From Methanobacteriota archaeon (GTDB lineage Archaea; Thermoplasmatota; Poseidoniia; Poseidoniales; Poseidoniaceae), in contig NZFU01000002.1 in assembly GCA_002689345.1 (NCBI GenBank), positions 8,438 through 72,437 of the forward strand: DNA of 64,000 nt. Direction: 5' to 3'. Positions within the stretch are counted from its first letter, which is position 1. Each line of letters opens with the position of its first letter. Under the pieces are notes generated by a model. That model did no database searches and was not told the DNA's origin. It saw nothing but the letters and a program-made list of their open reading frames with translations. Below are positions 19,676 through 60,631 of this stretch, in pieces. The position numbers and the translations under genes are program-made.

Positions 19676-20611
19676 TTACAATATTTTGTTATCAATCCAC
19701 TCTAATATCAGTGCATCTCTTTCCTCATTAACTCTGTTTTTTGAGTGAGTGAGAGATGTTAGTAAATGTGGATATACTTCTACATCTTGGTCTAATAGTA
19801 AATCATAGTGGTACCTTCCAAGCCTAGAATCATTCTCTGCTTGTAGTAGAAGTATGGGGGCCTTTGGTACACCCCATGAAGGAATGTCAATATCTCTCCA
19901 TTCAATATTACCTATTTCAGGATGTATTTTGTTGAAACCTTTCATCGCCCATCGTTTGAATAGGGGGAACATGAATGGTATATTGGATGTTAATTCTTTC
20001 ATTATTGGCGAATATGCAACCATTGGCGACTCTAGCATTAGTGTGCCATAACTGTCCTTCCACCACCCTTGGTGGCGTGTGTTGTGCATGCCTATACAGA
20101 TGAATGCCCCTAGGCTATGTCCAAAAAAGTGAACCTTGTTAATTTTAGATTGATCTACAGACTCTAGTAATATCTTGAGGTCTTGGATTACTTTACCTGC
20201 AGTCCATTCTGGTGTGTCAGGAGCCATTCCGTGCCCTCTCATATCATGGGCTAGTGTATGTAGCCCTTTATTGCGAAATAATTGAATTCTTTCTGTGAAT
20301 TTTTCACTTGAAGATTGCCATCCATGTACGAAAACTACCATGTCTGATTTATTCGGTTGATAGTTAACATATCCATAGACATCGACTCCATTGTTATCTA
20401 AATTTATGATATCCCAATCTTTATTGGAAAAAGGAAGACTTCTCTTAGTTGGTCCGCGGAATATTAGTCGCAATAATATTTGATGAACCAATATTAGAAT
20501 AGTAATGCTGACTAGAGCTATTGAATAAGGTGTCAGTATTGACAAAACAGCACATGTGGCAATTAATGTTAGTATGGCATAGCCATCCCAGGTCGCCTTA
20601 CGGCGGTCCAT
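19676..20611 (-). CDS. Alpha/beta hydrolase with an N-terminal TM anchor
   Basis: The GHSLG nucleophile elbow is present, with HGW upstream. The N-terminal hydrophobic helix is YAILTLIATCAVLSIL. Confidence 0.6.
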   Translation of the reverse strand: MDRRKATWDGYAILTLIATCAVLSILTPYSIALVSITILILVHQILLRLIFRGPTKRSLPFSNKDWDIINLDNNGVDVYGYVNYQPNKSDMVVFVHGWQSSSEKFTERIQLFRNKGLHTLAHDMRGHGMAPDTPEWTAGKVIQDLKILLESVDQSKINKVHFFGHSLGAFICIGMHNTRHQGWWKDSYGTLMLESPMVAYSPIMKELTSNIPFMFPLFKRWAMKGFNKIHPEIGNIEWRDIDIPSWGVPKAPILLLQAENDSRLGRYHYDLLLDQDVEVYPHLLTSLTHSKNRVNEERDALILEWIDNKIL

Positions 20612-20613
20612 AT

Positions 20614-21480
20614 TCAGTCCTCAGTTTCTTCTACTGATTCGCCTTCAACAGATTCCTCTTCGGCCTTAGCAGCTCTCGCCTCTGCCTTTTTCTGAGCTTT
20701 TTCTTGGCGCTCAACTTGCTTTTCTTGCCACTTGTCACCAAAGTCACCAAGAGATTCAAATCTAGCTATCCAACCAGTTTCATTTCCAGTAGCTACGTGC
20801 TTAACCAGGTATGCGCTAAATGCTAAATCGAAAATTCCTTGAGAAAAATCTGAATTCTTCTTGAAGAAGAAATTTAATATCCAAATGACAATCATTACTG
20901 CACCAATAGCTACGTTTGTCACACCGCCACTTTGTCCAAGGTTCTGGAAATTCATTCCAATTAGAATGAATCCAATTAGGAATAAGAATCCTAGGCTGTT
21001 ATTCAAAACCGCATGTATGAATATTGGTTTGGACCCAGAGGAATTGATGTATTTGGTACGAGAAACGAATTCTCCGATATTCCTACCAGCCCATATAGGG
21101 ATGACAAGCCAGTTGACAAGTATCATTAGGAATGCTCCTATGAAAGGTATTGTCAAATCTGGATCTCCGAATGCGAATATTGCAAGTGTTCCAATAAGGA
21201 CTCCGAAGTTCCATGCGAAATTAATCAACCAACCGATATAACGAGGCATTTTACCTGATAGTTCGTATCCTTCTGGAAGACCACTAGGGCGTAGTTTTTC
21301 CGTTTTAGCTGCTTTTGGAGCTGCTCTCTTTGCAACTGCTTTCTTCGCTGCTGCTTTCTTTGGCGCCGCCTTCTTTGGCGCTGCTTTCTTTGGCGCTGCT
21401 TTCTTAGGAGCTGCTTTCTTTGCAACAGCTTTTGCTGGCTTATCTTCATCAAGATTTTCGACTTTGTCAAGTAATCCCAT
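20614..21480 (-). CDS. RDD-family-like membrane protein with an N-terminal KKAAP-repeat (histone H1-like) tail and an acidic coiled-coil C-terminus
   Basis: The sequence (KKAAP)x5 is followed by IGWLINFAWNFGVLIG..AGRNIGEFVSRTKYINSSGSKP, which is RDD-like. The C-terminus is KQVERQEKAQKKAEARAAKAEEESVEGE. The first ATG is at 21480. Confidence 0.5.
   Translation of the reverse strand: MGLLDKVENLDEDKPAKAVAKKAAPKKAAPKKAAPKKAAPKKAAAKKAVAKRAAPKAAKTEKLRPSGLPEGYELSGKMPRYIGWLINFAWNFGVLIGTLAIFAFGDPDLTIPFIGAFLMILVNWLVIPIWAGRNIGEFVSRTKYINSSGSKPIFIHAVLNNSLGFLFLIGFILIGMNFQNLGQSGGVTNVAIGAVMIVIWILNFFFKKNSDFSQGIFDLAFSAYLVKHVATGNETGWIARFESLGDFGDKWQEKQVERQEKAQKKAEARAAKAEEESVEGESVEETED
21322..21425. repeat. 15-bp tandem repeat (gctgctttctttggc)n encoding the KKAAP repeats
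   Basis: About 6 near-perfect 15-bp copies are read directly in the sequence. Confidence 0.7.
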
Positions 21481-21490
21481 TTTTGTCACC

Positions 21491-22645
21491 TCAACTATAC
21501 ATTGCACCGATTGCACGGTATGTTTCGAATTCTTCTGAATCTACGAATTCAGCTATAGCATCTTCAGGCATTCCGCCCAATAATGTGTCGACGACCGAGA
21601 AGAACTCAGAACGGTCATCTTCAGTGGAGTTTTCTGGAGATGAGCCTACGCTACGGTAAACTTCAAACCCATCGGATTTAGTAAATTCCTCAATTTTATC
21701 TTCGGGAAGATTAGAACCTAATAGTGCATCAACAATTGATACAAACTCTAAGAATAAATCGTCAGATTCGTCAGCGGGTTCAGCAACATAAGATTCTTCT
21801 TCTTCATCAACCTCAGCCTCATATTCCTCTTCGTCATCCGATTCAATCAATTCATCTATATCGGCCTCACCAGCAATTACAGCCTTGACTAATTTACGCT
21901 CAGACATTAATGATTCAAGCATTGGTCTTAATTCACGAAGTAATTCGCGGTCACCTTCATCTTTAGCAGATTGGTACTCCGGTTTGAGTCTACGTAATTC
22001 ATCTTCGATGGTTGTTAGTTGAGTATTCAACTCCACTAATGTATTTCCATCAAGGTGGCTTTGCTCTTCCTCTTCTTGATTTAGTAGTTGGACGGTTGGA
22101 GAATCTCTCACTTCAGCAACTTTGTCATCGCGCTCTTCTTTACGCATTACTATGATGTCACGGTCTAGTTCATGCCCAAATCTATCTGAATATCGATCGA
22201 GTAAACTGCCGATTTCGCCCTGGCTAATTCGGTCAATGTGCCCATAAACCTGTTGAAGCGGTTTACCACTCTTTTTGGCATACAGGCCGGAATATGAATC
22301 CTCTTCAACAACTTCTGGTTCCGGAGCTGGTGCTGGACTAGGTGGTAATGCCTCAATAGCGGGTTTTGGAGGAGGCATGACGGGCGCTTCAGCAGTTGCT
22401 GGCGTAGGTACTGGTGGTGGCCCTGCTGGAGAACTAGGAGCAGGTGGTGGAGCAGGGGCCGGAGGCGCAGGTAATGGTGCAGGAGGAGGAAGGGGTGCTG
22501 CAGGTAATGGAGCCGGTGGTGGAGGCAATGGCATACCCGGTGCAGGTGGCATTGGCATGCCTGGAGGTGGTGGCATTGGCATAGGCGGTAGGCCTGGCGG
22601 AGGGGGTAAATCGTTGCCTTTATTCTTCTTCTTACCCAGCCCCAT
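21491..22645 (-). CDS. Polyproline-rich, acidic, intrinsically disordered protein with two tandem roughly 40-aa acidic EF..VD.LLG..PED.I.EF..S..FE.YR..G modules
   Basis: Residues 10-110 are PPPPGLPPMPMPPPPGMP...APLPAPP. The C-terminus shows a clear internal duplication (DLFLEFVSIVDALLGSNLPEDKIEEFTKSDGFEVYRSVG versus SEFFSVVDTLLGGMPEDAIAEFVDSEEFETYRAIG), which supports this frame. The start was set to the ATG at 22645 to avoid overlapping priS. Confidence 0.5.
   Translation of the reverse strand: MGLGKKKNKGNDLPPPPGLPPMPMPPPPGMPMPPAPGMPLPPPPAPLPAAPLPPPAPLPAPPAPAPPPAPSSPAGPPPVPTPATAEAPVMPPPKPAIEALPPSPAPAPEPEVVEEDSYSGLYAKKSGKPLQQVYGHIDRISQGEIGSLLDRYSDRFGHELDRDIIVMRKEERDDKVAEVRDSPTVQLLNQEEEEQSHLDGNTLVELNTQLTTIEDELRRLKPEYQSAKDEGDRELLRELRPMLESLMSERKLVKAVIAGEADIDELIESDDEEEYEAEVDEEEESYVAEPADESDDLFLEFVSIVDALLGSNLPEDKIEEFTKSDGFEVYRSVGSSPENSTEDDRSEFFSVVDTLLGGMPEDAIAEFVDSEEFETYRAIGAMYS
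22290..22620. repeat. GC-rich low-complexity stretch (Pro/Ala codon repeats) that is open in three frames
   Basis: The spurious ORFs 22165-22659(-) and 22275-22766(+) arise here. Confidence 0.6.
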
Positions 22646-22728
22646 GGTGTGCACCTCATACCTCGTGGGCAGTAATCTGCCCTTGAACGTTGCCATTGGT
22701 CGAACCATACGTAGTATGGTATTGCGAC

Positions 22729-23967
22729 CTAAGATACAAGACGAGCCCATCCTTTCAAAATCATGAAAGTCGCCCCTGCCTCATGTATCTCAATTACATC
22801 ACCAGTAGACCCATCAATGATGCGATCATCGAATCTTGCAATCGCATCATCAACAGTGATTTCTATTCGTACTAATTCGTCTCGTGAAAGAGCTATTCCT
22901 TCACTAAGACAGTCAAATGAATTTGACCCATCTGGGTCGAGGCGATGGAGTGGGAATTCAGTGACCCTCATTCCACTCTTACCATGTAGCGAACCAGGCC
23001 ATCGGATTTGGCGTCTAGTATCGATAGTCACTACTTCATCTGTTTCTCCAGCACTACCCAACACAACACTTGAATCGGCCCTGATTAAATTCTGAAATAG
23101 TAATGCGTGATTATTCAAAGCAGTCAATCTTCCATTCAACACTCGTTGTCTGCGACTATCGGATTGCATTAACTCGGATAATTTCTCAACACTAGCTTTG
23201 CCTCGAAGTCCCTTTATTCCCTCTCTATCCATCATTTCCTGTAAAGATGCAGTCATTACCTTCAACATCTTGGTATCTCCTTCGTAAATAGAATCCAATT
23301 TACCAACAACCGATTCTATTCCTACTCCAACACGTTTGGCCCATCCTGTTGCGCCAGATTGACGCGACCTCTCTAAAAGGTCGCTTACCTCTACGCCTTC
23401 TCCGCGTATATGGCTAACTAATTCTCTTCTTGCTTCAGAACCAAGATGGAAGAATTTGGGATCTCGGTAATGCAGATGGAATCCTCGGTGCCCTGAAAAT
23501 GTAACCTGTAAATACTCTTCTTTGAATCCAAAATCTGGCTGCAAAAAATCATTCCATAGGGACCATGCTTGTTCTTGAATAACATCTATCATTCCGGGGA
23601 AGTCTTTGTCGGTCACACCTGGCAAATGGTCACCATCTAGATCGAAAATCAAGTCAGCACCCAACCAATCTTTGTCTGCCATCTTCAATTCATGGGGTTT
23701 TTTCCAGTATGCAGTTGAATAGAAACACGAATGTTGCGGCCTTTCACATATGAATCTCCGCACACTTTCCATATCAGAAAATGCCTTGTGCCGTAGGGGC
23801 ATTCCTCCTCCGAATGGAATAAACATCCATTCTCTAGTTCTTAGTCGAGGCGGGGTCCACAATTGTGCAGTACGATAGTACTGTGTAAATCGATGCGCGA
23901 ACCTAGCCCAGCCTGAAATTGTACCACCTCTGAGGTAGGTAGTTGGCGGAGACCTTTGAATCTTCAC
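22729..23967 (-). CDS. priS: DNA primase small (catalytic) subunit PriS
   Basis: It has the DLIFDLDGDH catalytic aspartate motif and REWMFIPFGG..RH. The protein is about 410 aa. The start is GTG, overlapping the upstream TGA as GTGA. Confidence 0.8.
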   Translation of the reverse strand: MKIQRSPPTTYLRGGTISGWARFAHRFTQYYRTAQLWTPPRLRTREWMFIPFGGGMPLRHKAFSDMESVRRFICERPQHSCFYSTAYWKKPHELKMADKDWLGADLIFDLDGDHLPGVTDKDFPGMIDVIQEQAWSLWNDFLQPDFGFKEEYLQVTFSGHRGFHLHYRDPKFFHLGSEARRELVSHIRGEGVEVSDLLERSRQSGATGWAKRVGVGIESVVGKLDSIYEGDTKMLKVMTASLQEMMDREGIKGLRGKASVEKLSELMQSDSRRQRVLNGRLTALNNHALLFQNLIRADSSVVLGSAGETDEVVTIDTRRQIRWPGSLHGKSGMRVTEFPLHRLDPDGSNSFDCLSEGIALSRDELVRIEITVDDAIARFDDRIIDGSTGDVIEIHEAGATFMILKGWARLVS

Positions 23968-24167
23968 TCTTTCCAGAAGCGAGTTTCTCTTTGAATTTCA
24001 ACAGTTGCAGTATCGGCACCAGTTAGTTCAACATAGTGTTCCCAGCAAAAATAGTTCTTGTCAACTACCATTGCTTCGCCGAAAGTCATACGTGTGCCGC
24101 AAGATTTGCACCGAGGGCCAAGTTCGCCATTTGGAGTCTGAGCAAGTTGGATATGTTCGTGTGGCAT
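23964..24167 (-). CDS. Small (67 aa) zinc-ribbon-like protein translationally coupled to priS
   Basis: It has CKSCG...(17)...CWEH. Its stop overlaps the priS GTG start. Confidence 0.4.
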   Translation of the reverse strand: MPHEHIQLAQTPNGELGPRCKSCGTRMTFGEAMVVDKNYFCWEHYVELTGADTATVEIQRETRFWKE

Positions 24168-24217: not shown

Positions 24218-24700
24218 TCACCAGTCGATTTCCGTGCTTTCATCGCACAAGGCGAGTAAATCCAAAGCAACTTCGCACGATTCTGAAATTTCAGGTATTT
24301 TATCACTCAAAAATTTGAGCAATACTGGTTTAGCACTGCGATCACCTATGGCGCCAAGTGCCTCAGCGGCTTCATGGCGCACCATGACATGCTCTTGTTC
24401 ATCGCTCAGGACCTCGATTAATTTAGGAACTGCTAGTGGATCTTGCATTTGTCCAAGGACATATGCTAACTCGTGGCGCAACAATGCACTATGAGAATCA
24501 AATCCATCGCATAAAGCCATCACTGCATTACTCGTTCTATCATTCCTTAGCGAGAAAACTGCTCTCATTCTGAGGAACATTTTGATGTCCTCGTCAAGAA
24601 GAGTGTTGCGAAGTGAAGATACATTCGATTCCTTAGATGGTGGAGCAGGATCTACAGAACCATATTCTGAAACACCAGGGATTCGGTCTGCAATACTCAT
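24218..24700 (-). CDS. Half-size deoxyhypusine hydroxylase (DOHH)-like HEAT-repeat protein with two His-Glu motifs
   Basis: It contains SVDPAPP, SALLRHELAYVLGQMQDP, MVRHEAAEALGAIGD and SCEVALDL. These match blocks I recall from each half of eukaryotic DOHH (HE metal-binding dyads, AEALGAIG, SCEVALD). The protein is 160 aa, about one DOHH lobe. Confidence 0.55.
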   Translation of the reverse strand: MSIADRIPGVSEYGSVDPAPPSKESNVSSLRNTLLDEDIKMFLRMRAVFSLRNDRTSNAVMALCDGFDSHSALLRHELAYVLGQMQDPLAVPKLIEVLSDEQEHVMVRHEAAEALGAIGDRSAKPVLLKFLSDKIPEISESCEVALDLLALCDESTEIDW

Positions 24701-51831: not shown

Positions 51832-54800
51832 GTGAGAAAAATGGCAAATATCTCTTACTTAGAAAATCCTCTCGAATCAGAGGTTTTGTATGAGACATTA
51901 TGTCAACCAGTAAGGAATTGGTTTAAAGATAAATTCCCTGATTTTACCAAACCTCAGAAATTAGCAATTCCTTCGATTATGGATGGAGACCATCTATTAC
52001 TTTGTTCACCAACCGGTTCTGGAAAGACACTAACGGCATTCCTAACTATTATCGATAAATTGGTCAGACATGCCTTAGATGGAACTTTAGAACAACGTGT
52101 CTACTGTCTTTACATATCTCCAATAAAAGCTCTAGCAAATGATATTCAAAAGAACTTGATTGGACCGCTTGGGGAAATAGAGGAGAAATATCTACCAGAT
52201 AGGGCTCAAGGGAAAATTCGAGTAGGTCTTAGGACTGGTGATACCCCTCAATCTGAAAGGCAAAAGATGCTGCGTAAGCCACCTCATATTCTGATTACAA
52301 CACCAGAGAGTATGGCTATTGCTATCTCATCACCTCGATTCCAACCTATTGTATCCAATGTTGAATGGATAATTATTGATGAGATGCACTCATTGGTTCC
52401 AACAAAGCGAGGAGTACATTTAGCACTTACAATTTCACTTCTAGATACGATTCTAGAGAGACCAGTTCAACGAATTGGTATATCTGCTACGATGGAACCA
52501 TTGGAAACTGTAGCAGAATATCTAGTAGCAAGTGATGACCGCGAAAGTCGTAATGCAAGTCAGGATGTAAAGATTGCAAAGATTAGTGGAGCTAGAGAAT
52601 TAGATTTAGACATCCTATTGTGCTCTCCAAAATTCAGTGACCTTTCGGTGATGAAAGTTCTAGAGATGAATGTAGAAATGATCGCTGATCTAATCAGTGC
52701 ACATAACACAACTCTAGTATTCGCAAATACAAGAAAAATGACTGAAACTTTGGTACAAAAGTTACGTCCTTACTTAGGCGAATTAATCGCAGGTCACCAC
52801 GGTTCTATGGACAAGAGAATCCGTCTTGATGTCGAGAGGAAATTAAAACTGGGCCATTTGAGGGCAGTTGTCACTTCATCTTCCTTGGAAATGGGTATTG
52901 ATATCGGTTCTGTCGACATGGTAATCCAAATCGGCTCGCCAGGAGACATTGCTACAGCATTGCAAAGAATAGGTAGAGCAGGACACCACGTAGGCGGAAT
53001 TCCTCGTGCTAGGTTCTTGCCAACGAGTGTAGATGATCTAATCGAATTAGCTGCATTACAAGCAGCAATTCAAACTGGTGAAATGGATAAATTAGATTTT
53101 CCACAAAATAGTTTAGATGTTTTAGCACAGTTCTTGATAGGTCTCGTAATTATCAATGAACGAGATATTGATGAAGCCTATGAAGTAGTTACTAGCACTT
53201 GGTCATATCGAAATTTGAGATATGATGATTTTATTGAAGTTCTAGATATGCTTGAAGAAGAACGTCGTGTTTGGATTGATTGGGAAGAAAACCTCTATGG
53301 AAAGCGCGGATATTCAAGAATGATTTACTACACAAATATTGGTACTATCGCTCCTGATAATTCATACCTAGTATTCAATGCCGAAGGAAGTATCTTGGGG
53401 CAATTATCATCTTCATTCGTTGCAAACCTAAGAGGCGGAGATGTCATTCTTCTTGGAGGCTCCACTTACAGAGTAACCAATATTCAAGGAACAAGAGTAA
53501 ATGTTGCCTCAGTTACAGGATACAGGCCAACAGTCCCTTCATGGAGTGGTGAAGCTAGAAGCCGTTCAAGGGAGTTATCTGGGGCGTTGTTAGACCTCAT
53601 AGGACATTGTGTTAACACTCTAAGACGTCAAAACGACCCTCGTGTAATTCTAAGAGATGCTTATGGATTGAGCGAAGGTGTATCTAATACAATAGCTAGG
53701 CATTTAGAAGAGCATACTCTCGATTCATTCCAGGTACCCGATCCAAATCGACTAATTGTTGAACAAATCGTTTCTGGTGGAATGCCAACATACCTGATAA
53801 CATCTTGTCGAGGAAGAGGATTCAATACTGCATTAGGATACTTTATGGCAGGATTGGCAGAAAAAGATGGTATCGCTGTGCTAGAGTTGTCATTTGATGA
53901 AAATGGATTACTTATCAAAACTAGTCAAGAAGTAGACCCAGGAAAAATGTATGAGTCATTCCAATCCAATGACCATCTAGAGGTCATTGAAAGATATATT
54001 GTAAATACACAAATATTTGCTAAGAGATTCAGAGAAGTTGCAGGCCGCTCACTAATTATTCCTAAGAGAATCGGGGCTGAAGAAGTGAGCCCTCAGCAAT
54101 TCCAGCAACGCGCAGATTCATTGTTGCAGAGACATCGTTCGATTGAAGATTCATTATTGATTAAAGAAGCGAAGGCTGAAATTATGTTCGGTGATATCGA
54201 CATAAAATCACTAAATGACTTCTTAGAATCCAGTAAAGACTCTGAAGCAAGAATCGTTCACACAAAGGTTCCTGTTCCTTCAAGGCTCGGAATGAGCCTT
54301 TACATGAGTACTTTCGAAGATCTACTGTCAATGAAGACAAGAGCGTTCCTTGTCAAAGACATAGACCCTGAAATTTTACGCCGATTGTTGGGTAATAGGA
54401 GTCTTGCAACTGAATTAACCGATGAGCAATTAGCAGATTACTATTCCAATAAGGTCCCTAATCCAACCAATGCTTCACAACTTCTGCACCTAATGAGTAA
54501 AGGTGGAGGTTTAGATCGTAATTGGGAAAACCCTCTGTATGCTGCTAAACTAGCAGGTATCGAACACAGCCTTATCGAAAAATGGGTTGCTGATTTAGCA
54601 CAACAAGGTGAAATTACAAAATTGCGTTCAACTGGAATGAAAGAACTTGATGACAAATGGTTTACTTCATACATGGCTGAAATCCATGGCTCTCTAGGAT
54701 GTATTGCTGAAGCTGGTGGCAAGGACATGGAAGATATTCGTGACCTTTACACCAAGGGCATTACATATGAGGTAGCAACTGATTTTAATGGATTAAAGCC

Positions 54801-57126
54801 TACTAAATGGGTTGAAAAAACCATTTCAGATCCCCATGAAGCATTACGTGTGAAAATTATCGAAATGCTGGGCAGTGAAGGTCCTGCTAAGGGCGACCAA
54901 ATTTCTGGAAGACTGCCTTTCCCACAGGGACAAATCGATTCAATTTTGCATGAATTAGAGATGCGAAATGTAATTTCAGTCGGATTCTTTACTCAAACAG
55001 AAGATGCCGAATACATCCTCAAAGTCGATGAGCATAGAATTACTGGCGGAGAGGAAGATGTTGTCGAATATCGATGGGTTCAGAACCTAGTTATGAGTAA
55101 ATCATTCGAGACATACCCCGATGGATTTACTGCATTCGATCAACATATTCTATTCCAAAAACAGCAAGAAATGCTGTATAGAGTAGATGGATTCAGATAT
55201 GCTGATTGGAAAGATGTTCAACTTGACTCAGATGTTGTCATGGGTAGGCTATTGCATAACAGAATAGGTTATACCACTCGTAAAAATATTCCAATGCTAC
55301 TGGGTTTGAAGCCAGAACCTTGGCTGGGCGAAATGGAAAAATTGATTCTTGAAAAGGTACCGAAGGGTGAAAATCTAACTCGTCAAGAAATTTTGGCTGA
55401 TTTCCCTAAGGGCGAGGAACACAAATCTCTTCAAAGGGATTTGAAGAATGCAATTAGCAATCTAGAAAGACAGTTATGTTTGGTCAAACAATTCGAGGAT
55501 GTTGTTGGACGCAGACGAAGACTGTCGCTATTCCACCGTGTTCATGATGTCTATGAATCAATGGATTTCGAAGATGCATTGGTTGAAGTAATCAAGCGAA
55601 TGGGGCCTGTTAAGGCGTTCACTCTACGTTATTATGTATCCAGAAGTGTTGAGGAATTGGCATTAGCACTACGAAATTTAGAGAACGATGGACGAATTGC
55701 TAGAGTTATGGCATTAGTGCCAGAACCTGAAGCATTTTACGTACTTCCAGATGAAGTATCTAGTCTTAGTTCACCTAATAGAGAAGATAGAACGTTACGT
55801 ATTCTTACTCAATCCGACCCATATGTTTCGAGATTCATTTGGGAAGTTCGCTCAGTGCTTGATAGAGGATGGTATCTACCGGTATTCAAAGGGGTTGACC
55901 CTATTGGAAAGGTGTTGATGTTCAAGATTAATGATTATCTTGAGATTAAGGACATGCATATTCCTTATGCCTATCTTGATGAATTCTGTACAGCTTTTGA
56001 GAAATTACTAGACAATCATTCTGACCAGTTGGTAGATGTTGCTGTACTATCCCAATTCAATGGAATACCTGTTACTGAATTAGAAGATGACTTTAGAAAT
56101 GCTCTGGAAGGAATAGGATTCAAGTTAGCGGGGGAGAGAATGATTCGTGGAGGAATCGTCGATCCGCAACCAAGAGAAATTGCTGAAAGAGCATTATTCC
56201 ACCGACATCATTTACATCAAAACTCGCGATTAGAAAACGAAATTGAAGCACTGGAAAGTGTTCAAGAAGTTAGAGATGATTTCGGGCTACGTGGACGTGC
56301 TGAAGTCTATCGGGTTAGCCTGAAAAACATGGCTAGTGCCCATCAGTTGCACCAAGGAATCAATTTACGAGGACACCAAGTATGGGCATCGTATGACCAC
56401 TTTTCGACTTTACTTGCTATACGAGGACAAGAACCTGTTGAAGAATTACTAGATGTGCTTGAATTCTTCGAAACTCATAGTGACCCTAATCTATTCATGG
56501 AAAGACATGCAATGAAGCGTGCTGCTTTCAGAAAATTGATTCAGCCATTATTGCGAAGTGGCCATATGGTTCAGGATTACCGTGGAGGTTTCCGTTCTGT
56601 AGCACCTCGGCAAGGATTAGACCCGGTTATTTTGCGAAGAGAATATCTGAGAAGGTTAGTTTCAGATTACCCTGTAATAACTCTCAAACAATTCACTCGT
56701 CTAGCAGGAACACCATTTAAGCCTGAAGAATTGAAGGCGATATTAACTGAATTTGAAGAAGATTCAACACTGATTAAGGGATTCTTGATTCAGGATTTGC
56801 ATGAGGTTTGTTGGGGTAGAAAAGATCTGCTCAATGAAGCCAAAGATGTGCCACCAATCCGTGATTTCGTAATTCCGCCATCTGACCCGATTGCGCCATA
56901 CTTTGCTGATGTGTTGAAACAAAAGTTCGGATTTGGTAGTGCTTACCTAGTATTCAGGAATGCAGAACCTGTAGCCGCTTTCAAAGCTAATACTCGAGAT
57001 AAGGTGATAGATGTCACTGATTATGAAGGTTCGGAAAAGGGTTGGAGAATCGTTAAAGAATTCGCATGGGAACATCAAATGCCACTCAAGACCGAATTGA
57101 GAATTGGTGGCAAGAGAAGAAAGTGA
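51832..57126 (+). CDS. lhr: Lhr-like superfamily-2 DNA helicase, long form (1764 aa) with a roughly 850-aa C-terminal extension
   Basis: Motif I is CSPTGSGKT and motif II is IIDEMH. ISPIKALANDI is typical of the Lhr core. Motif VI is QRIGRAGH. The C-terminal half contains repeated winged-helix-like segments. Confidence 0.7.
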   Translation: MRKMANISYLENPLESEVLYETLCQPVRNWFKDKFPDFTKPQKLAIPSIMDGDHLLLCSPTGSGKTLTAFLTIIDKLVRHALDGTLEQRVYCLYISPIKALANDIQKNLIGPLGEIEEKYLPDRAQGKIRVGLRTGDTPQSERQKMLRKPPHILITTPESMAIAISSPRFQPIVSNVEWIIIDEMHSLVPTKRGVHLALTISLLDTILERPVQRIGISATMEPLETVAEYLVASDDRESRNASQDVKIAKISGARELDLDILLCSPKFSDLSVMKVLEMNVEMIADLISAHNTTLVFANTRKMTETLVQKLRPYLGELIAGHHGSMDKRIRLDVERKLKLGHLRAVVTSSSLEMGIDIGSVDMVIQIGSPGDIATALQRIGRAGHHVGGIPRARFLPTSVDDLIELAALQAAIQTGEMDKLDFPQNSLDVLAQFLIGLVIINERDIDEAYEVVTSTWSYRNLRYDDFIEVLDMLEEERRVWIDWEENLYGKRGYSRMIYYTNIGTIAPDNSYLVFNAEGSILGQLSSSFVANLRGGDVILLGGSTYRVTNIQGTRVNVASVTGYRPTVPSWSGEARSRSRELSGALLDLIGHCVNTLRRQNDPRVILRDAYGLSEGVSNTIARHLEEHTLDSFQVPDPNRLIVEQIVSGGMPTYLITSCRGRGFNTALGYFMAGLAEKDGIAVLELSFDENGLLIKTSQEVDPGKMYESFQSNDHLEVIERYIVNTQIFAKRFREVAGRSLIIPKRIGAEEVSPQQFQQRADSLLQRHRSIEDSLLIKEAKAEIMFGDIDIKSLNDFLESSKDSEARIVHTKVPVPSRLGMSLYMSTFEDLLSMKTRAFLVKDIDPEILRRLLGNRSLATELTDEQLADYYSNKVPNPTNASQLLHLMSKGGGLDRNWENPLYAAKLAGIEHSLIEKWVADLAQQGEITKLRSTGMKELDDKWFTSYMAEIHGSLGCIAEAGGKDMEDIRDLYTKGITYEVATDFNGLKPTKWVEKTISDPHEALRVKIIEMLGSEGPAKGDQISGRLPFPQGQIDSILHELEMRNVISVGFFTQTEDAEYILKVDEHRITGGEEDVVEYRWVQNLVMSKSFETYPDGFTAFDQHILFQKQQEMLYRVDGFRYADWKDVQLDSDVVMGRLLHNRIGYTTRKNIPMLLGLKPEPWLGEMEKLILEKVPKGENLTRQEILADFPKGEEHKSLQRDLKNAISNLERQLCLVKQFEDVVGRRRRLSLFHRVHDVYESMDFEDALVEVIKRMGPVKAFTLRYYVSRSVEELALALRNLENDGRIARVMALVPEPEAFYVLPDEVSSLSSPNREDRTLRILTQSDPYVSRFIWEVRSVLDRGWYLPVFKGVDPIGKVLMFKINDYLEIKDMHIPYAYLDEFCTAFEKLLDNHSDQLVDVAVLSQFNGIPVTELEDDFRNALEGIGFKLAGERMIRGGIVDPQPREIAERALFHRHHLHQNSRLENEIEALESVQEVRDDFGLRGRAEVYRVSLKNMASAHQLHQGINLRGHQVWASYDHFSTLLAIRGQEPVEELLDVLEFFETHSDPNLFMERHAMKRAAFRKLIQPLLRSGHMVQDYRGGFRSVAPRQGLDPVILRREYLRRLVSDYPVITLKQFTRLAGTPFKPEELKAILTEFEEDSTLIKGFLIQDLHEVCWGRKDLLNEAKDVPPIRDFVIPPSDPIAPYFADVLKQKFGFGSAYLVFRNAEPVAAFKANTRDKVIDVTDYEGSEKGWRIVKEFAWEHQMPLKTELRIGGKRRK

Positions 57127-57175
57127 CAAACTTTCTTACCAATATCATCTAATCACAATTTTCAGTCCAATAATC

Positions 57176-60100
57176 ATGGACATGAGAAGTGTTAGATTAA
57201 ATAACAAGGAAATGGGACGGACAATTGTGAACCGTAAGGCGTTTATCCTAATTGCTCTGATGATTTTAGTTTCAGCAAGTCCACTATTATCTTCAACATC
57301 TGCTAACGAAGTCGAAGATATTGTGATTCTTGATACTGCAGTCAATCCTGCCAATAACCACACCTACCATTTGTTATCAGCATCATCTTGGAGTGATGCT
57401 GCAACCGTTGCTCGTAGTCTTGATGGATTCTTGGTAACCATAGATGATGCTGAAGAAGACGAGTGGATTTTCGATACATTTGCCAGTGGAAATGACACCA
57501 CACGTCACCTATGGATCGGTCTTTCAGATTCACAAGAAGAGGGAGATTATCGCTGGCATGATGGAACTCCATTCATGTATCGAAATTGGGGTGAAGGGCA
57601 GCCTGGAAGTGGGGATGACGAAGATTATGTCCACATTACAGGAACCAATATGGGATCTATCGAGCCAGCGGATTGGAACGATTTAGAAGATGACCCACAA
57701 TACTTCCCTGTCTATGGGGTAGTTGAGATTGGTGAAGGTGCTGATTATGCCCTCAGGTTTGATGGCGATGACGACCACATAATCATCGATGAAGAAATGC
57801 CAGATTGGGATGGCCATATTGAGATTGAAGCATGGGTCAATGTTCCAGATACAGATGGAATACAATTTATCACAATGTTCGGAGATTATGGATGGGGTCT
57901 TTATCTGAATAATGGAGACTTAGCCTATTCAAATCAATATTCAATGTCACAGAATCCAGTTTCAAACCAATCCATTCAAGAAAATGTATGGACTCATGTT
58001 AAGGTAGTCGTAAATACCACAAACGGTGGTGAATTTTTCATTGACAACCAATCAGCAGGTTTGATTGATGTAAATGATTCACAAATTCCAAGTGGTGACT
58101 TCGGTTCAAATGACTGCTTCCAATCAGGAGATGATTGTGATGAGTTGTTTATTGGAAAGATGGGAGCAGGTTGTGACTGTAACTACTTCCGTGGAATGCT
58201 TGATGATGTTATTATTAGTAATTCGATGAATGAAAGTATGTGGATGTTCACTGAAGGTGAAGGTGCATCAACCGTTGATTCACAAAATCGTGAGGGGGAA
58301 ATAATTGGCGCATCATGGGTTATGCCCGATGGAACAATTATTGCCCAGGCTGTTGAAATAGAAAATGGTGAATTCTATGATGGAATCGATGCAAATGCTG
58401 GAGACACCTTGCTATTTTTCATGGAGATTCCTGAAAACACCCAATATCTGAGTCTCAGTATGTACACATGGGAATTTGATTTCGAAGCGGAAGAAACATC
58501 TGAAGAAATAGAAATTGAAATATATATTTCGAAAGATGAAATTCCTTCGGCTTGGGACCATGACTATGAAGTGATCACATATGATTGGGGATTGTATGTC
58601 TATGAATACTTTGAATGGCCTGATGAAGGGACATATTGGATGACAGTTTCTTCCAATTATGAAATTTCAAACCTAGAGATAAATGCATACTGGGAACTTG
58701 CACCTGAGCCGCCGGAACTCGATGATATGACTGAACTTAATGATGGCATTGCAGTTACTGGTCAAACCATCACAAGAAATAGTGACAAACCCCTCTACTA
58801 CTATGTAGATTTACAAGATGAGTTGGCAGAATTACGTGTCAACACATGGGGCGGACCTGGTGATTGTGAACTGCACATAGCCCTAGGAGCCCTACCGATG
58901 ACCGATGATTGGGGATGGGATGATTTTGAGTCACAAAGTTCGAGTTCAGACACTAGCGGTCGACAAATCGGTGGTGGGCAAGAAACCTCAGACCATTCAT
59001 ACAATCCGGGTAATGATGAAACTGTGCAAATTTTCGATGCCCAACCGGGTATTTACTACATCATGATGACATCTTATAGTGGATGCAGACAAGTATCAAT
59101 ACAAGCTGATTTCACATATAGTCCAGACAATGTTGACCCTGAATCTGCTATCGAATTAACCGCTGGAATTTCCTATGGTCCACTTAGTGGATTCGAGGGA
59201 TTAGACCAATATTTCTACATCGATGTACCAGTGGGAACTGAGCGCTTAGAAGTTGATTTGAATAATGGTGATGGAGAGGCTAAATTGATGATGAGGCTCG
59301 ACCAATATCCAACATGGACAACCTATGACAAGCACTCTAATGCACCAGGTGCTGGTGATAAAATTGGATTTAATGATCCAACTCCTGGACGATGGTACAT
59401 ATTATTGGGCAGTGAAGAATATTACAGTCGTATCGATATTACAGCATCCTTTGAAGACCGCTATGTATGGACATATGATGGTGAACCTATTCAGTTATTC
59501 AATGATGAAGAGATTGGAGGAATTAGTGCTCCAGAAGGAGAAGAATTGTACTTCTTCATAGATTTAGGTGATGATGTTGCTTCAGATTTATTCATTGAAA
59601 CATGGGGTGGCGAAGGCGACCTAGCACTATTTGCCGAAGTTGAGGAAATCGACTGGGAAGACATGAACGGTGGCGGGCCAGGAGGTCGACAATGGGGCGA
59701 AAATGGAGAATATGAATCCGATAATGGTGAGGCTAATGAAGAAATAAGTATATTCTTTGCAACAGGTCAAATAGACATCACAATGTATGCAAATACTGAC
59801 ATTGAGGATATATCGATTATCGCAGTATGGGAAATATTTGATGCACCGGGACCTGGGCCAGACCCAGACCCAGACCCAGAACCAAACCCAGACCTAGAAA
59901 TTATTCCGTGTGATGAATATGCTTTGGAATTGTTTGAAGAGATGGATAGAAACTCTGATGGCGATTTAGGTCCAGAAGAAATGGATGAAGATGAATTAGA
60001 AGAATTTGACACCAACAGGGATGGTGTTATTGACATCAATGAATTAACAATGAGTGCTTGTACATGTGAAAATGAAATATGGATGACATTCATGCAAGTA

Positions 60101-60631
60101 GATTCTGATGAGTTGAGCATTGAATTCATGTCAAGTGTGGCTTGGAAGAATGAACATGATTTCTTTGCAATCGATAGAAATAATGACAATTATATTGACT
60201 CGATAGAAGTTGATGATTATGCTGAAACCTGTGTAACAACTTATGATCCTAATGACCGTGATGGAGATGGAACTCCAGACGATAAGGATGCATTCCCAGA
60301 TGACCCAGACGAAGACACTGACACTGACGGGGATGGAGTTGGTGATAATTCCGATATTATTGCCTCTGTAGACAATGACATTATTTGGGTATCATCTAGC
60401 ATATTAGGATTGATTTTAGTTACTGTGTTAGGTTATGTATTCATGCGTTCAAAGAGTGAACCTGAATATGCTTGGGAATATCACAAAGATAAGATGTCTG
60501 AATCTATGCTGGATAATTTACAACCAGTAAATGATGATTTAGCACCCGAAGAGGTCCCCCCAGCTTTAGACTTAGGACCACCAACAAAGGATGTTCCTGA
60601 CGATATGAAAGTTGCAGATCTCTACGATTGA
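57176..60631 (+). CDS. Large cell-surface protein with a signal peptide, a C-type-lectin-like domain, a LamG/ConA-like domain, about 4 PPC (pre-peptidase C-terminal) domains, a PD-repeat linker, EF-hand/dockerin-like Ca loops, TSP3-like poly-Asp repeats, a TM anchor, and a 70-aa cytoplasmic tail
   Basis: The CTLD-like block is WSDAATVARSLDGFLVTIDDAEEDEWIFDTF...HLWIGLSDSQEEGDYRWHDGTPFMYRNWGEGQPG...WNDLEDD, which includes WIGL and WND. LamG-like beta strands follow. PPC-like blocks are YYYVDL...GDCELHIALG..GIYYIMM, QYFYIDVPVG...GRWYILL and LYFFIDLG...GDLALFA. EF loops are DRNSDGDLGPEE, DTNRDGVIDINE and DRNNDNYIDSIE. The TSP3-like run is DPNDRDGDGTPDDKDAFPDDPDEDTDTDGDGVGDNSD. The TM helix is ILGLILVTVLGYVFM. 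The start was set to the ATG at 57176. Alternatives are 57212, or TTG at 57104. Confidence 0.65.
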   Translation: MDMRSVRLNNKEMGRTIVNRKAFILIALMILVSASPLLSSTSANEVEDIVILDTAVNPANNHTYHLLSASSWSDAATVARSLDGFLVTIDDAEEDEWIFDTFASGNDTTRHLWIGLSDSQEEGDYRWHDGTPFMYRNWGEGQPGSGDDEDYVHITGTNMGSIEPADWNDLEDDPQYFPVYGVVEIGEGADYALRFDGDDDHIIIDEEMPDWDGHIEIEAWVNVPDTDGIQFITMFGDYGWGLYLNNGDLAYSNQYSMSQNPVSNQSIQENVWTHVKVVVNTTNGGEFFIDNQSAGLIDVNDSQIPSGDFGSNDCFQSGDDCDELFIGKMGAGCDCNYFRGMLDDVIISNSMNESMWMFTEGEGASTVDSQNREGEIIGASWVMPDGTIIAQAVEIENGEFYDGIDANAGDTLLFFMEIPENTQYLSLSMYTWEFDFEAEETSEEIEIEIYISKDEIPSAWDHDYEVITYDWGLYVYEYFEWPDEGTYWMTVSSNYEISNLEINAYWELAPEPPELDDMTELNDGIAVTGQTITRNSDKPLYYYVDLQDELAELRVNTWGGPGDCELHIALGALPMTDDWGWDDFESQSSSSDTSGRQIGGGQETSDHSYNPGNDETVQIFDAQPGIYYIMMTSYSGCRQVSIQADFTYSPDNVDPESAIELTAGISYGPLSGFEGLDQYFYIDVPVGTERLEVDLNNGDGEAKLMMRLDQYPTWTTYDKHSNAPGAGDKIGFNDPTPGRWYILLGSEEYYSRIDITASFEDRYVWTYDGEPIQLFNDEEIGGISAPEGEELYFFIDLGDDVASDLFIETWGGEGDLALFAEVEEIDWEDMNGGGPGGRQWGENGEYESDNGEANEEISIFFATGQIDITMYANTDIEDISIIAVWEIFDAPGPGPDPDPDPEPNPDLEIIPCDEYALELFEEMDRNSDGDLGPEEMDEDELEEFDTNRDGVIDINELTMSACTCENEIWMTFMQVDSDELSIEFMSSVAWKNEHDFFAIDRNNDNYIDSIEVDDYAETCVTTYDPNDRDGDGTPDDKDAFPDDPDEDTDTDGDGVGDNSDIIASVDNDIIWVSSSILGLILVTVLGYVFMRSKSEPEYAWEYHKDKMSESMLDNLQPVNDDLAPEEVPPALDLGPPTKDVPDDMKVADLYD

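What the first reader, a model, noticed from the sequence alone, without database searches (positions are those of the whole stretch)
21491..22645. Polyproline protein with a duplicated acidic EF..VD.LLG..PED.I.EF..S..FE.YR..G module, encoded next to priS
About 100 residues of PPPPG/MPxPP polyproline (FH1-like, a potential profilin/SH3-type ligand) are followed by a highly acidic segment and then two clearly homologous roughly 40-aa modules. The repeat supports the reading frame. The GC-rich stretch is open in three frames. The duplicated module does not match any family I can name. Disordered polyproline plus acidic amphipathic modules suggests a scaffolding or cytoskeleton-interacting role. 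The gene is co-oriented with the RDD/KKAAP membrane protein downstream of it and with priS upstream.
Basis: seen in the sequence. Interest (0 to 1): 0.55.

Follow-up and report, generated by a model that had tools for sequence, protein, structure and literature searches.

The report
Polyproline adaptor paired with RDD protein
This is a real gene, conserved across marine group II archaea, for a proline-rich coiled-coil protein; its duplicated C-terminal module belongs to a barely described domain family that almost always sits just before a gene whose product starts with MGLLxK, which suggests an undescribed protein-docking pair.

Summary
Window 21491-22645 (-) encodes a 384-aa protein with 45% Pro in its first 115 residues and two C-terminal ~40-aa modules that are 48% identical. 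The frame is conserved across Poseidoniales (marine group II archaea).

The module is not family-less. It matches the recent, uncharacterised Pfam entry PF27359 (TP_0179).

The new result concerns gene order. In 77 of 80 Poseidoniales loci, the next gene, 8-14 nt downstream where measured (46 loci), encodes a protein starting with the invariant peptide MGLLDK. The same holds in about 29 of 31 distinct module genes from other lineages, mostly archaeal or DPANN-like, with the looser form MGL[LR]x[KR].

In Poseidoniales that partner is a divergent RDD membrane protein with a histone-H1-like Lys/Ala/Pro tail. Elsewhere the partner is a type IV pilus ATPase, a KaiC-like ATPase, a DUF2226 protein or a small membrane protein.

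The best reading is that the protein is a cytoplasmic adaptor, docked by its tandem module onto the partner's N-terminal peptide. Docking is inferred from gene order, not shown. The formin/profilin reading has no support. The cellular role is unknown.

The parts
21491..22645 (-). Gene A: 384-aa polyproline / coiled-coil / tandem-module protein (stop codon at 21491-21493)
   Evidence: ORF and translation. 950 homologues at E <= 1e-3, the best 120 being 67-99% identical. 365 matching stretches in GTDB species genomes, the best 80 all Poseidoniales.
22613..22645 (-). Basic N-terminal tip MGLGKKKNKGN (aa 1-11)
   Evidence: Conserved as MG[LF][GR]KKK in orthologues. A GAGGTG Shine-Dalgarno-like element lies 6 nt upstream of the ATG.
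22313..22612 (-). Proline-rich arm (aa 12-111), made of repeated LPPPP / PPxPG[LM]P units
   Evidence: 52 Pro in the first 115 aa. The first units are invariant in 16 orthologues (L13 P14-16 G18 P20 P23 P25 G29 P33 P34), and the rest varies in length. LPPPP units recur in distant orthologues.
22130..22300 (-). Family-specific core motif YSGLYAKKSGKPLQQVYGHIDRISQGEIGSLLDRYSDRFGHELDRDIIVMRKEER (aa ~116-172)
   Evidence: Nearly invariant in alignments A1 and A4. Homologous to the KKSYQRL..IDRM..ERFQRKFGE motif of outgroup proteins (hhalign 94% probability, E = 1e-7). AF2 confidence is low in the monomer (pLDDT 49-59).
21872..22048 (-). Antiparallel helical hairpin / coiled coil (aa ~200-258)
   Evidence: AF2 helices at 89-119 and 122-147 of the model (aa 200-230 and 233-258), pLDDT 96-98.
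21761..21862 (-). Acidic linker (aa ~262-295), partly disordered
   Evidence: Composition. pLDDT below 50 for model residues 166-179.
21638..21760 (-). Module 1 (aa 296-336), a three-helix unit of the PF27359 type
   Evidence: Internal repeat. AF2 pLDDT 88-96, and 93.5 for the module pair modelled alone. hhalign against PF27359-labelled single-module proteins gives 97.7% probability, E = 1.8e-12.
21494..21613 (-). Module 2 (aa 345-384), the second three-helix unit, at the extreme C-terminus
   Evidence: Same evidence as module 1. In 80 of 101 module-bearing cluster representatives the module occurs as a pair; in the sequences inspected it lies at the C-terminus.
21481..21492 (-). 10-nt A-B intergenic spacer (21481-21490) plus the last two bases of A's stop codon, carrying a GAGGTGA Shine-Dalgarno-like element; suggests translational coupling of A and B
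   Evidence: Sequence. The A-stop to B-ATG gap is 8-14 nt in 46 of 46 measured Poseidoniales loci, and 34 of those have an SD-like element.
20614..21480 (-). Gene B: 288-aa partner. Invariant N-terminal MGLLDK, a Lys/Ala/Pro-rich tail, a divergent RDD transmembrane domain, and a charged C-terminal tail
   Evidence: MGLLDK starts the downstream protein in 77 of 80 Poseidoniales loci. The peptide is encoded by 26 synonymous nucleotide versions. hhalign to RDD proteins: 97% probability, E = 7e-11. An orthologue hits PF06271 RDD at E = 2e-4. The N-terminal tail has median length 68 aa and median net charge +14. Weak H1/HC2-like hits.
21463..21480 (-). Codons for the MGLLDK peptide, the proposed ligand of the tandem module
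   Evidence: This is the only MG[LIVMF][LIVMF][DE][KR] ORF start in the six-frame translation of the window. For the cross-lineage association.
22729..23967 (-). priS (primase small subunit), the upstream co-oriented neighbour; probably in the same transcription unit
   Evidence: PF01896 at 6e-18 and NF001639 at 9e-59. Syntenic in 74 of 80 loci. Not linked in the outgroups.
19676..20611 (-). alpha/beta-hydrolase gene whose start lies 2 nt downstream of gene B's stop (first downstream gene in the co-oriented block)
   Evidence: PF12146 at 1e-15. Syntenic in 67 of 80 loci.

Best explanation
Gene A encodes a cytoplasmic adaptor. It forms the first half of a translationally coupled two-gene cassette with gene B, a divergent RDD-family membrane protein. 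I propose that A's C-terminal tandem three-helix module (Pfam PF27359 type) docks onto the invariant N-terminal peptide MGLLDK of B. [quoted passage not shown] The proline-rich arm is either a stiff spacer or a multivalent LPPPP / PPxPG[LM]P ligand for an unidentified partner.

Shown: the gene is real and conserved across the order. The A-B pairing is conserved beyond the local synteny block. Module-bearing genes are followed by MGL[LR]x[KR]-initiated genes in many lineages and in many architectures.

Inferred: physical binding of the module to the peptide; that both proteins face the cytoplasm (A has no signal peptide, and B's tail fits the positive-inside rule); and any downstream role. One possible role is membrane-nucleoid tethering through B's basic tails and the Rho_N/SAP motif found in some orthologues.
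For: (1) Conservation: 950 homologues; 365 matching stretches in GTDB species genomes, the best 80 all Poseidoniales; the frame, the start and the domain order are all conserved.

(2) A-B pairing: B follows A in 77 of 80 loci, with an 8-14 nt gap where measured (46 loci) and an SD-like element in 34 of those.

(3) Pairing outside the syntenic block: divergent relatives of A have a homologous core motif (hhalign 94% probability, E = 1e-7). Two of them (L082-84, L086) sit after a VWA gene and directly before a bona fide RDD protein (PF06271, 1e-15 and 1.9e-14) that starts with MGLLDKA, with no priS nearby. A third (L085) sits after a VWA-like fragment and before a 214-aa MGLLDKA protein with no RDD or other Pfam hit.

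(4) Window gene B is homologous to those RDD proteins (hhalign 97% probability, E = 7e-11), and its orthologue in L035 hits RDD at E = 2e-4.

(5) The module-motif rule holds across unrelated architectures. An Altiarchaeales DnaA-type ATPase with the module is followed by an MGLLDKAKK DUF2226 protein. A coiled-coil protein with the module is followed by an MGLRDK protein resembling that DUF2226 protein by eye (no Pfam hit), then a T2SSE ATPase. Membrane proteins with the module are followed by a small MGLLN[KR] protein with a winged-helix-like segment (by eye) and a C-terminal hydrophobic helix, then T2SSE and, in L096, T2SSF. In 19 metagenomic loci the partners are PilB3-like T2SSE ATPases carrying 1-4 GLLxK[AV] copies in their N-terminal extension, a KaiC-like ATPase, or proteins that start with the motif and end with their own module.

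(6) Control: in 193.6 kb of non-Poseidoniales loci, all 33 ORFs that start with MG[LF][LR].[KRI] lie at a module gene. Thirty-one lie within -10 to +60 nt of its stop, one overlaps it by 23 nt, and one is a second copy inside a partner. Twenty-five of 31 distinct module genes fit the strict pattern, and four of the six exceptions are variants (TTG start, MSLLEK, MGLFER, overlapping start).

(7) MGLLDK is encoded by 26 synonymous nucleotide versions, so selection acts on the peptide.

(8) AF2 predicts the module pair as a compact six-helix domain (pLDDT 93.5, pTM 0.83).
Against: No direct evidence of binding exists.

The rule is not absolute. P0216 in L087 and P0241 in L093 have no such partner.

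The motif could be an N-terminal amphipathic membrane-targeting or regulatory helix recognised by something else. The module could equally be an oligomerisation domain, with adjacency reflecting only shared operons.

The roles of the core motif and the proline arm are unexplained. AF2 confidence for the core is low.

Window gene B itself does not reach any Pfam RDD threshold.

Inside Poseidoniales the synteny is uninformative, because about 10 kb is collinear in all loci.
Confidence: 0.55

Rival explanations
1. One reading: the polyproline tract works like a formin FH1 domain. It would recruit a profilin-like, SH3-like or other proline-binding cytoskeletal factor, and the acidic modules would act as cytoskeleton-binding amphipathic elements.
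For: The tract resembles FH1, EVH1 or GYF ligands by eye (LPPPP, PPPPG[LM]P). Its first units are invariant among orthologues, which argues for more than a compositional constraint. LPPPP units recur in distant orthologues.
Against: There is no FH2 or any other cytoskeletal domain. The models have no structural neighbours. To my knowledge profilin is known only in Asgard archaea among prokaryotes. The modules are PF27359 units whose genomic partners are MGLLxK proteins, not cytoskeletal genes. Most of the tract varies freely in length and sequence.
Confidence: 0.1
2. The operon is shared but there is no docking. On this view the tandem module is a self-association domain, as proposed for other short C-terminal domains. 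The MGLLxK peptide would be an independent amphipathic N-terminal helix for membrane targeting or regulation. The two co-occur only because both belong to the same kind of membrane-machine operon.
For: N-terminal MGLL... amphipathic helices occur in unrelated membrane-associated proteins such as Arf/Arl GTPases (hit, plus my own knowledge). The module is duplicated, which fits pseudo-dimer packing. No binding data exist.
Against: The arrangement is very specific: the module sits at the extreme C-terminus of the upstream product and the motif at the extreme N-terminus of the very next product, across at least six unrelated partner families. Some partners already have transmembrane segments, so they do not need a targeting helix. 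Some ATPases carry 2-4 internal copies of the motif, which is typical of a peptide ligand.
Confidence: 0.2
3. The Pro-rich tract is mainly a translational device. Long PPP/PPG runs stall ribosomes unless aIF5A is active, so the tract would tune the amount of A, and of the translationally coupled B, to aIF5A or hypusination status. CadC in E. coli is tuned by EF-P in this way.
For: The tract is rich in PPP and PPG stalling motifs. A and B are tightly coupled. A homologue of deoxyhypusine hydroxylase lies three genes upstream and is syntenic in 56 of 80 loci.
Against: Most of the tract is not kept as strict PPP runs. In MGIIb orthologues it drifts to PxP and AP-rich sequence. The proximity to the DOHH homologue may only reflect order-wide collinearity. 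A regulatory role would not exclude a structural one.
Confidence: 0.08
4. The pair is an accessory or derived part of a type IV filament (pilus or archaellum) assembly system. A would recruit a secretion ATPase or another machine component to the RDD protein.
For: In other lineages module genes sit directly upstream of T2SSE/PilB3-like, KaiC-like and T2SSF genes.
Against: No T2SSE, T2SSF or pilin gene lies near the pair in the window, and none appears among the called genes of the one flanking locus inspected in full (L001); the 80 Poseidoniales loci were screened only for the window's own neighbours. The relatives that carry the core motif pair with an upstream VWA gene and, in two of three loci, an RDD protein.
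Confidence: 0.07

Closest known systems
Pfam PF27359 (TP_0179 family; named after Treponema pallidum TP_0179, function unknown)
   Same: The ~40-aa unit (F..hVD.LL..LPED.I..F..S..F..Y..h) is the element this label covers. The 69-aa and 79-aa proteins that consist of a linker plus one unit carry PF27359. The near-identical orthologue P0001 and many other homologues carry it too. hhalign of the unit against the labelled proteins gives 97.7% probability.
   Different: Here the unit is a tandem pair at the C-terminus of a polyproline / coiled-coil protein. The precomputed hit is only 'faint' for the one Poseidoniales orthologue checked (P0015). No function, partner rule or structure is attached to the family in anything I could read.
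RDD family membrane proteins (PF06271), for partner B
   Same: The transmembrane core of B aligns with RDD proteins, including the G..hG..h.+h+hh...G..P segment. Outgroup partners pass the Pfam threshold.
   Different: The Poseidoniales branch is too divergent to pass the threshold. It carries an invariant MGLLDK tip and H1-like tails. The function of RDD is itself unknown. One paper proposes a Na+(Li+,K+)/H+ antiporter (PMC5996927, abstract, plus my recollection of the paper) and another describes an intramembrane binding site facing the cytoplasm (PMC12419801).
Docking domains of modular PKS/NRPS assembly lines (my own knowledge)
   Same: It works in the same way: a small helical domain at the C-terminus of one protein is matched to a short N-terminal element of the protein encoded next. 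This includes chains in which one protein carries both ends (L105-L107).
   Different: There is no sequence or fold relationship. The context here is membrane machines and ATPases, not biosynthesis. The interaction is inferred, not shown.
Formin FH1 domains and ActA/zyxin-type (F/L)PPPP or GYF-type PPG-hydrophobic ligands (my own knowledge)
   Same: All have multivalent proline-run units separated by Gly, Leu or Met.
   Different: There is no FH2 domain, no known archaeal reader domain in this lineage, and no cytoskeletal gene association.
TonB-type proline-rich spacer proteins (my own knowledge)
   Same: A long proline-rich segment links a terminal anchor region to a small C-terminal interaction domain that contacts a membrane protein.
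   Different: There is no N-terminal transmembrane helix, no TonB_C domain and no ExbB/ExbD neighbours.

Membership tests
Pfam PF27359 (TP_0179) module | Match to the family HMM | tested here: inconclusive
   The family is absent from the local Pfam copy, so the scan returned nothing. The precomputed label is present on the 99%-identical P0001 and on many orthologues, but is marked 'faint' for P0015. It is unmarked (E <= 1e-5) for P0239 and P0241.
Pfam PF27359 (TP_0179) module | Profile-level homology of the ~40-aa unit to proteins that consist of little more than one labelled unit | tested here: met
   hhalign of 58 unit sequences against P0276-P0279 and P0241 units gives 97.7% probability, E = 1.8e-12, over 42 columns.
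RDD family (PF06271), partner B | Match to the RDD HMM above the gathering score | tested here: not met
   Window gene B has no RDD hit at E <= 0.1. Orthologue L035 scores 22.0 bits against a cut-off of 24.1.
RDD family (PF06271), partner B | Profile-profile homology of the transmembrane core to bona fide RDD proteins | tested here: met
   hhalign of 23 Poseidoniales B proteins against the RDD proteins of L082 and L086 (which pass Pfam at 1e-15 and 1.9e-14) gives 97.1% probability, E = 7e-11, over 105 columns.
Formin (FH1-FH2) | An FH2 domain C-terminal to the proline-rich FH1 | tested here: not met
   No Pfam or NCBIfam hit for the 384-aa protein. Foldseek finds no neighbour at E below about 1.
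Formin (FH1-FH2) | A profilin or other proline-run reader encoded in the genome | not testable with these tools
   Only a 64-kb window and ~12-kb loci are available, and no whole-genome annotation.
TonB | N-terminal transmembrane anchor and a TonB_C domain | tested here: not met
   The N-terminus is MGLGKKKNKGN followed directly by the Pro-rich tract, with no hydrophobic helix. There is no TonB_C hit.
SHOCT or other named short C-terminal domains | Pfam match | tested here: not met
   No hit for this protein or for 10 other module-bearing proteins.
Ribosomal L7/L12 N-terminal domain (core motif) | Significant sequence match | tested here: inconclusive
   A profile search of the PDB gives 1dd4_C at E = 0.011 over 36 residues. 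It is a two-helix pattern only, and I treat it as chance.

The most novel reading that the evidence does not exclude
The PF27359 tandem module and the N-terminal GLLxK[AV] peptide form a general, previously unrecognised head-to-tail docking code in archaea, and possibly in some bacteria. The code would wire adaptors to the protein encoded next. It would recruit type IV filament ATPases (some with 2-4 ligand copies), KaiC-like ATPases and RDD membrane proteins, and it would allow daisy chains of proteins that carry both ends. In marine group II archaea, the docked pair would be a polyproline adaptor plus an RDD protein with H1-like and sometimes SAP/Rho_N tails. Encoded next to primase, this pair would tether the nucleoid or the replication machinery to the membrane.
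Probability: 0.3. Interest if true: 0.75.

Novelty: new variant of a known kind. Interest (0 to 1): 0.6.

Why it matters
Marine group II archaea are among the most abundant archaea in the surface ocean, and they are uncultured. A conserved, order-wide two-gene membrane cassette of unknown function is therefore a real gap in what is known about their cell biology.

The gene-order rule found here has wider reach. It turns an anonymous Pfam entry (PF27359) into a testable hypothesis: a portable docking domain whose ligand is a six-residue N-terminal peptide. If the hypothesis holds, partner proteins could be predicted from sequence alone in many poorly known archaea, including DPANN-like lineages and Altiarchaeales. 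It would also give a handle on how archaeal type IV filament ATPases are recruited, and it would supply a small orthogonal peptide/domain pair for engineering.

A separate observation also matters. The half-size deoxyhypusine hydroxylase homologue three genes away bears on the open question of how, or whether, archaea hydroxylate deoxyhypusine.

Tried and rejected
Family scans: Pfam, NCBIfam and PADLOC on the protein gave nothing usable. Rfam on the window gave no match.

Structure and sequence comparisons: a PDB sequence-profile search gave only a weak L7/L12 N-terminal-domain match to the core motif (E = 0.011) and coiled-coil noise. Foldseek of the 273-residue model and of the module model against the PDB, and of the module model against BFVD, gave nothing at E below about 0.4 and TM-scores below about 0.58. 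I therefore name no fold relative.

Searches that failed or returned little: a profile search of the 5.8-billion-protein set with non-MGII modules returned one protein, because the query is too short for that database size. A search with the P0241 modules returned four small proteins, useful only for pinning down what PF27359 covers. The search for related loci with the diverse module alignment A3 failed for lack of a conserved stretch. A viral-contig scan with A6 found nothing.

Ideas tested and dropped: tblastn for VWA, DUF2226 or T2SSE relatives in the window was negative. The bacterial-type promoter/terminator scan was not above the shuffled controls and is not suited to archaea. I first read PF27359 as polyproline noise and dropped that reading once Pro-free proteins were seen to carry the label. 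I considered the modules as EF-hands, ACP-like or MIT-like by eye and rejected all three, because neither the consensus nor any hit fits. Apparent module-plus-extension 'fusions' (P0158, P0217, P0243) are frameshifted gene calls.

Literature: searches for the motif strings and for DUF2226 found nothing relevant, and the papers mentioning TP0179 appear from their titles and abstracts to be T. pallidum genomics studies.
Full report
**Observation.** The minus-strand ORF at 21491-22750 is real. Homologues show that translation starts at the ATG at 22645 (MGLGKKKN...), which gives 384 aa.

The first 115 residues contain 52 prolines, arranged as LPPPPGLPP / MPMPPxPG units. The last ~90 residues are two ~40-aa modules that are 48% identical over 44 positions. 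The Pro-rich segment explains the local GC peak (0.56-0.61 against about 0.42) and the two extra open frames.

That interval holds a ~60-aa motif, YSGLYAKKSGKPLQQVYGHIDRISQGEIGSLLDRYSDRFGHELDRDIIVMRKEER, which is almost invariant in 16 orthologues. It also holds a helical hairpin.

**Reality and distribution of the gene.** A search with the non-proline part found 950 proteins at E <= 1e-3, and the best 120 are 67-99% identical. An exhaustive HMMER search of 1.84 billion cluster representatives found only 139 clusters, so the family is narrow.

A scan of one genome per GTDB species found 365 matching stretches. The best 80 are all Poseidoniales (marine group II archaea, MGIIa and MGIIb), apart from one contig filed under a 'Verrucomicrobiales' MAG that carries the same gene order and is probably mis-binned. 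The window therefore comes from a Poseidoniaceae-like archaeon.

Orthologues keep one ORF from the basic tip through the Pro-rich tract into the core, despite many in-frame length changes.

**Anatomy.** AlphaFold2 with a 46-sequence alignment gave pLDDT 96-98 for an antiparallel helical hairpin (aa ~200-258) and 88-96 for the C-terminal modules. It gave low confidence (49-59) for the core motif and for the acidic linker.

The module pair modelled alone is a compact six-helix domain (pLDDT 93.5, pTM 0.83).

Foldseek found no convincing neighbour in the PDB or in BFVD. Sequence-profile searches of the PDB, Pfam, NCBIfam and PADLOC found nothing beyond a weak two-helix resemblance of the core motif to the L7/L12 N-terminal domain.

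**What the module is.** An HMM built from the two window modules finds the unit in 101 of the 139 cluster representatives. In 80 of them it occurs as a pair; in the sequences inspected the pair lies at the extreme C-terminus.

The unit is attached to unrelated N-terminal parts. These include multi-pass membrane proteins, a coiled-coil protein, a SWIM-like protein, and a bacterial-type DnaA ATPase domain in Altiarchaeales that lacks the DNA-binding domain IV.

The precomputed Pfam label PF27359 (TP_0179) first looked like polyproline noise. It is in fact carried by Pro-free proteins, including 69-aa and 79-aa proteins that are only a linker plus one unit. hhalign of the unit against those proteins gives 97.7% probability. 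The module therefore belongs to a recent Pfam family that is missing from the local copy, and I found no function for it.

**The neighbour.** The downstream gene (20614-21480) starts 10 nt after the stop of gene A, behind a GAGGTGA element. In 46 of 46 measured Poseidoniales loci this gap is 8-14 nt.

Its product has an N-terminal tail rich in Lys, Ala and Pro. Across orthologues the tail has a median length of 68 aa and a median net charge of +14, and it gives weak histone H1/HC2-like hits. A membrane domain and a charged C-terminal tail follow.

The window protein does not reach the Pfam RDD threshold. However, a profile of 23 orthologues aligns with bona fide RDD proteins at 97% probability, E = 7e-11, and one orthologue scores 22 bits against RDD.

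Two MGIIb orthologues end in a Rho_N/SAP motif (E = 1.5e-7).

**Is the pairing meaningful?** Within Poseidoniales the whole ~10-kb block is collinear: MqnA, HEAT protein, a 67-aa Zn-ribbon-like ORF, priS, A, B, hydrolase, and CNNM on the opposite strand. Synteny inside the order therefore proves little.

The informative cases are divergent relatives of A that lie outside this block. They have a homologous core motif (hhalign 94% probability, E = 1e-7) and the tandem module. None has priS nearby, and all three follow a VWA gene (a below-threshold fragment in L085). In two of the three loci (L082-84 and L086) the next gene encodes an RDD protein that passes Pfam; in L085 it encodes a 214-aa protein with no Pfam hit.

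**The unexpected rule.** All of these downstream proteins start with MGLLDK, as do the B proteins of 77 of 80 Poseidoniales loci. The hexapeptide is encoded by 26 different synonymous nucleotide strings, so it is selected at the peptide level. It is the only such ORF start in the six-frame translation of the window.

I followed module-bearing proteins of other architectures, and the next gene again begins with the motif:
- Altiarchaeales DnaA-type ATPase with the module is followed by an MGLLDKAKK DUF2226 protein.
- A coiled-coil protein with the module is followed by an MGLRDK protein that resembles the Altiarchaeales DUF2226 protein by eye but has no Pfam hit, then a T2SSE ATPase.
- Membrane proteins with the module are followed by a small MGLLN[KR] protein with a winged-helix-like segment (by eye) and a C-terminal hydrophobic helix, then T2SSE and, in L096, T2SSF.

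A metagenome scan with a module alignment returned 19 further loci. In 18 of them the strict pattern holds, and the remaining one has the variant MSLLEK.

In those loci the partners fall into four groups:
- PilB3-like T2SSE ATPases whose Lys-rich N-terminal extensions carry one to four GLL[EQKN]K[AV] copies.
- A KaiC-like ATPase.
- A 79-aa protein whose sequence resembles the winged-helix-like segment of the small partners (no Pfam hit).
- Proteins that start with the motif and end with their own module, followed by yet another motif-initiated gene.

As a control I scanned 193.6 kb of non-Poseidoniales loci. All 33 ORFs starting with MG[LF][LR].[KRI] lie at a module gene. Twenty-five of 31 distinct module genes obey the strict pattern. 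Four of the six exceptions are variants: a TTG start, MSLLEK, MGLFER and an overlapping start. That leaves two true exceptions.

**Interpretation.** The simplest reading is that the tandem PF27359 module is a receptor for the GLLxK[AV] peptide at the N-terminus of the protein encoded next. This is a head-to-tail docking arrangement, functionally like the docking domains of PKS/NRPS assembly lines (my own knowledge).

For the protein in hand, this makes it a cytoplasmic adaptor held at the membrane by the RDD-like partner. Its acidic linker would lie next to the partner's basic tail. Its hairpin, core motif and ~100-residue proline arm would be available for other contacts.

None of this binding is shown. 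It is inferred from gene order and conservation. What the complex does is open:
- The H1-like tails, the SAP/Rho_N variant and the primase neighbour hint at nucleic-acid or nucleoid contact.
- The type IV filament context elsewhere hints at assembly of membrane machines.
- The RDD domain itself has no settled function.

**The proline arm.** Its first units are invariant among close orthologues, and LPPPP units recur in distant ones. It may therefore be a multivalent ligand rather than only a spacer.

No reader domain is known in this lineage, and no cytoskeletal association was found. The FH1/profilin idea therefore remains an untested resemblance. A translational role, through aIF5A-dependent pausing on PPP/PPG runs, is a minor alternative.

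**Novelty.** The held literature contains nothing on the motif, nothing relevant on DUF2226, and no evident function for TP_0179. The survey of archaeal type IV pilus loci contains none of the terms I searched for (DUF2226, RDD, winged helix, proline-rich), and its listed cytoplasmic components include no obvious match.

I rate the finding as a new variant of a known kind: an adaptor with a peptide-docking domain. The underlying family is already in Pfam, but the partner rule and this architecture appear to be undescribed.

**Side observation.** The 160-aa HEAT protein at 24218-24700 is a half-size homologue of human deoxyhypusine hydroxylase. phmmer gives E = 5e-65, it aligns to both halves of 4D4Z, and the His-Glu motifs are conserved. 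A 2016 paper states that no DOHH orthologue had been identified in any archaeon (PMC5178350).

Noticed in passing
window 24218-24700 (-): A 160-aa HEAT-repeat protein is a half-size homologue of human deoxyhypusine hydroxylase (PDB 4D4Z, E = 5.2e-65). It aligns to both halves of the 294-aa enzyme and keeps the His-Glu motifs (RHELAYVLGQ, VRHEAAEALGAIGD). It is syntenic in 56 of 80 Poseidoniales loci. PMC5178350 (2016) says no archaeal DOHH orthologue had been identified. It lies three genes upstream of a gene whose Pro-rich tract should need aIF5A for translation.
   Followed up: partly
window 23964-24167 (-): A 67-aa Cys-containing ORF, Zn-ribbon-like, with only weak LIM and PP0621 hits. Its stop overlaps the priS start. 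It is conserved in 69 of 80 Poseidoniales loci. It might be a small primase-associated protein.
   Followed up: partly
L032 6790-7710 and L034 6790-7737: In two MGIIb orthologues, the RDD-like partner ends in a Rho_N/SAP (helix-extension-helix) motif (PF07498, E = 1.5e-7). In many other MGIIb orthologues the C-terminus is a second Lys/Ala/Pro-rich tail. Both features suggest nucleic-acid binding at the membrane.
   Followed up: partly
L099, L102, L103, L105, L108, L112 (for example L103 1824-3977): PilB3-like T2SSE secretion ATPases of AT-rich, DPANN-like metagenomic contigs carry N-terminal Lys-rich extensions with one to four copies of GLL[EQKN]K[AV][KQ]. Each lies directly after a gene that ends in the tandem module.
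   Followed up: partly
L105 961-5001; also L106 and L107: Some proteins start with MGLLQKAQE and end with their own tandem module, and are followed by another MGLLNK-initiated gene. This implies possible head-to-tail chains.
   Followed up: no
L090 6001-8732 (Candidatus Altiarchaeales, GCA_001742785.1): A protein annotated as DnaA has the bacterial DnaA ATPase domain (PF00308, 1e-68), but the DNA-binding domain IV is replaced by a low-complexity linker plus the tandem module. The next gene, whose start overlaps the stop, encodes an MGLLDKAKK DUF2226 protein that by eye ends in a winged-helix-like segment.
   Followed up: partly
P0134, P0138, P0139 (497-583 aa) and P0161: Longer family members carry an inserted segment with EF-hand-like loops, seen by eye only: FDANKNLYLTKSEL, DADQNQYLKKSEI and DIDNSGTLDFDEF. 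This hints at Ca2+ regulation in some lineages.
   Followed up: no
L063 (NZEQ01000006.1, filed under 'Verrucomicrobiales bacterium' MAG): This contig carries the complete Poseidoniales gene order (MqnA, HEAT protein, Zn-ribbon ORF, priS, A, B, hydrolase, CNNM). It is almost certainly an archaeal contig mis-binned into a bacterial MAG.
   Followed up: no
window 51832-57126 (+) and 57104-60631 (+): A 1764-aa Lhr-type helicase (DEAD, WH_Lhr and DEAD_assoc domains) carries a C-terminal AlkZ-like DNA glycosylase region. Next to it is a 1175-aa protein with C-type lectin, LamG-like and PPC domains, presumably a surface protein.
   Followed up: no
L082-L086: In the outgroup cassettes a VWA-domain gene lies immediately upstream of the A-like gene, giving the order VWA, A', then an MGLLDK-initiated protein (an RDD protein in L082-84 and L086, a 214-aa protein without Pfam hits in L085). 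In L085 the VWA hit is a below-threshold fragment. No VWA relative was found in the window by tblastn.
   Followed up: partly
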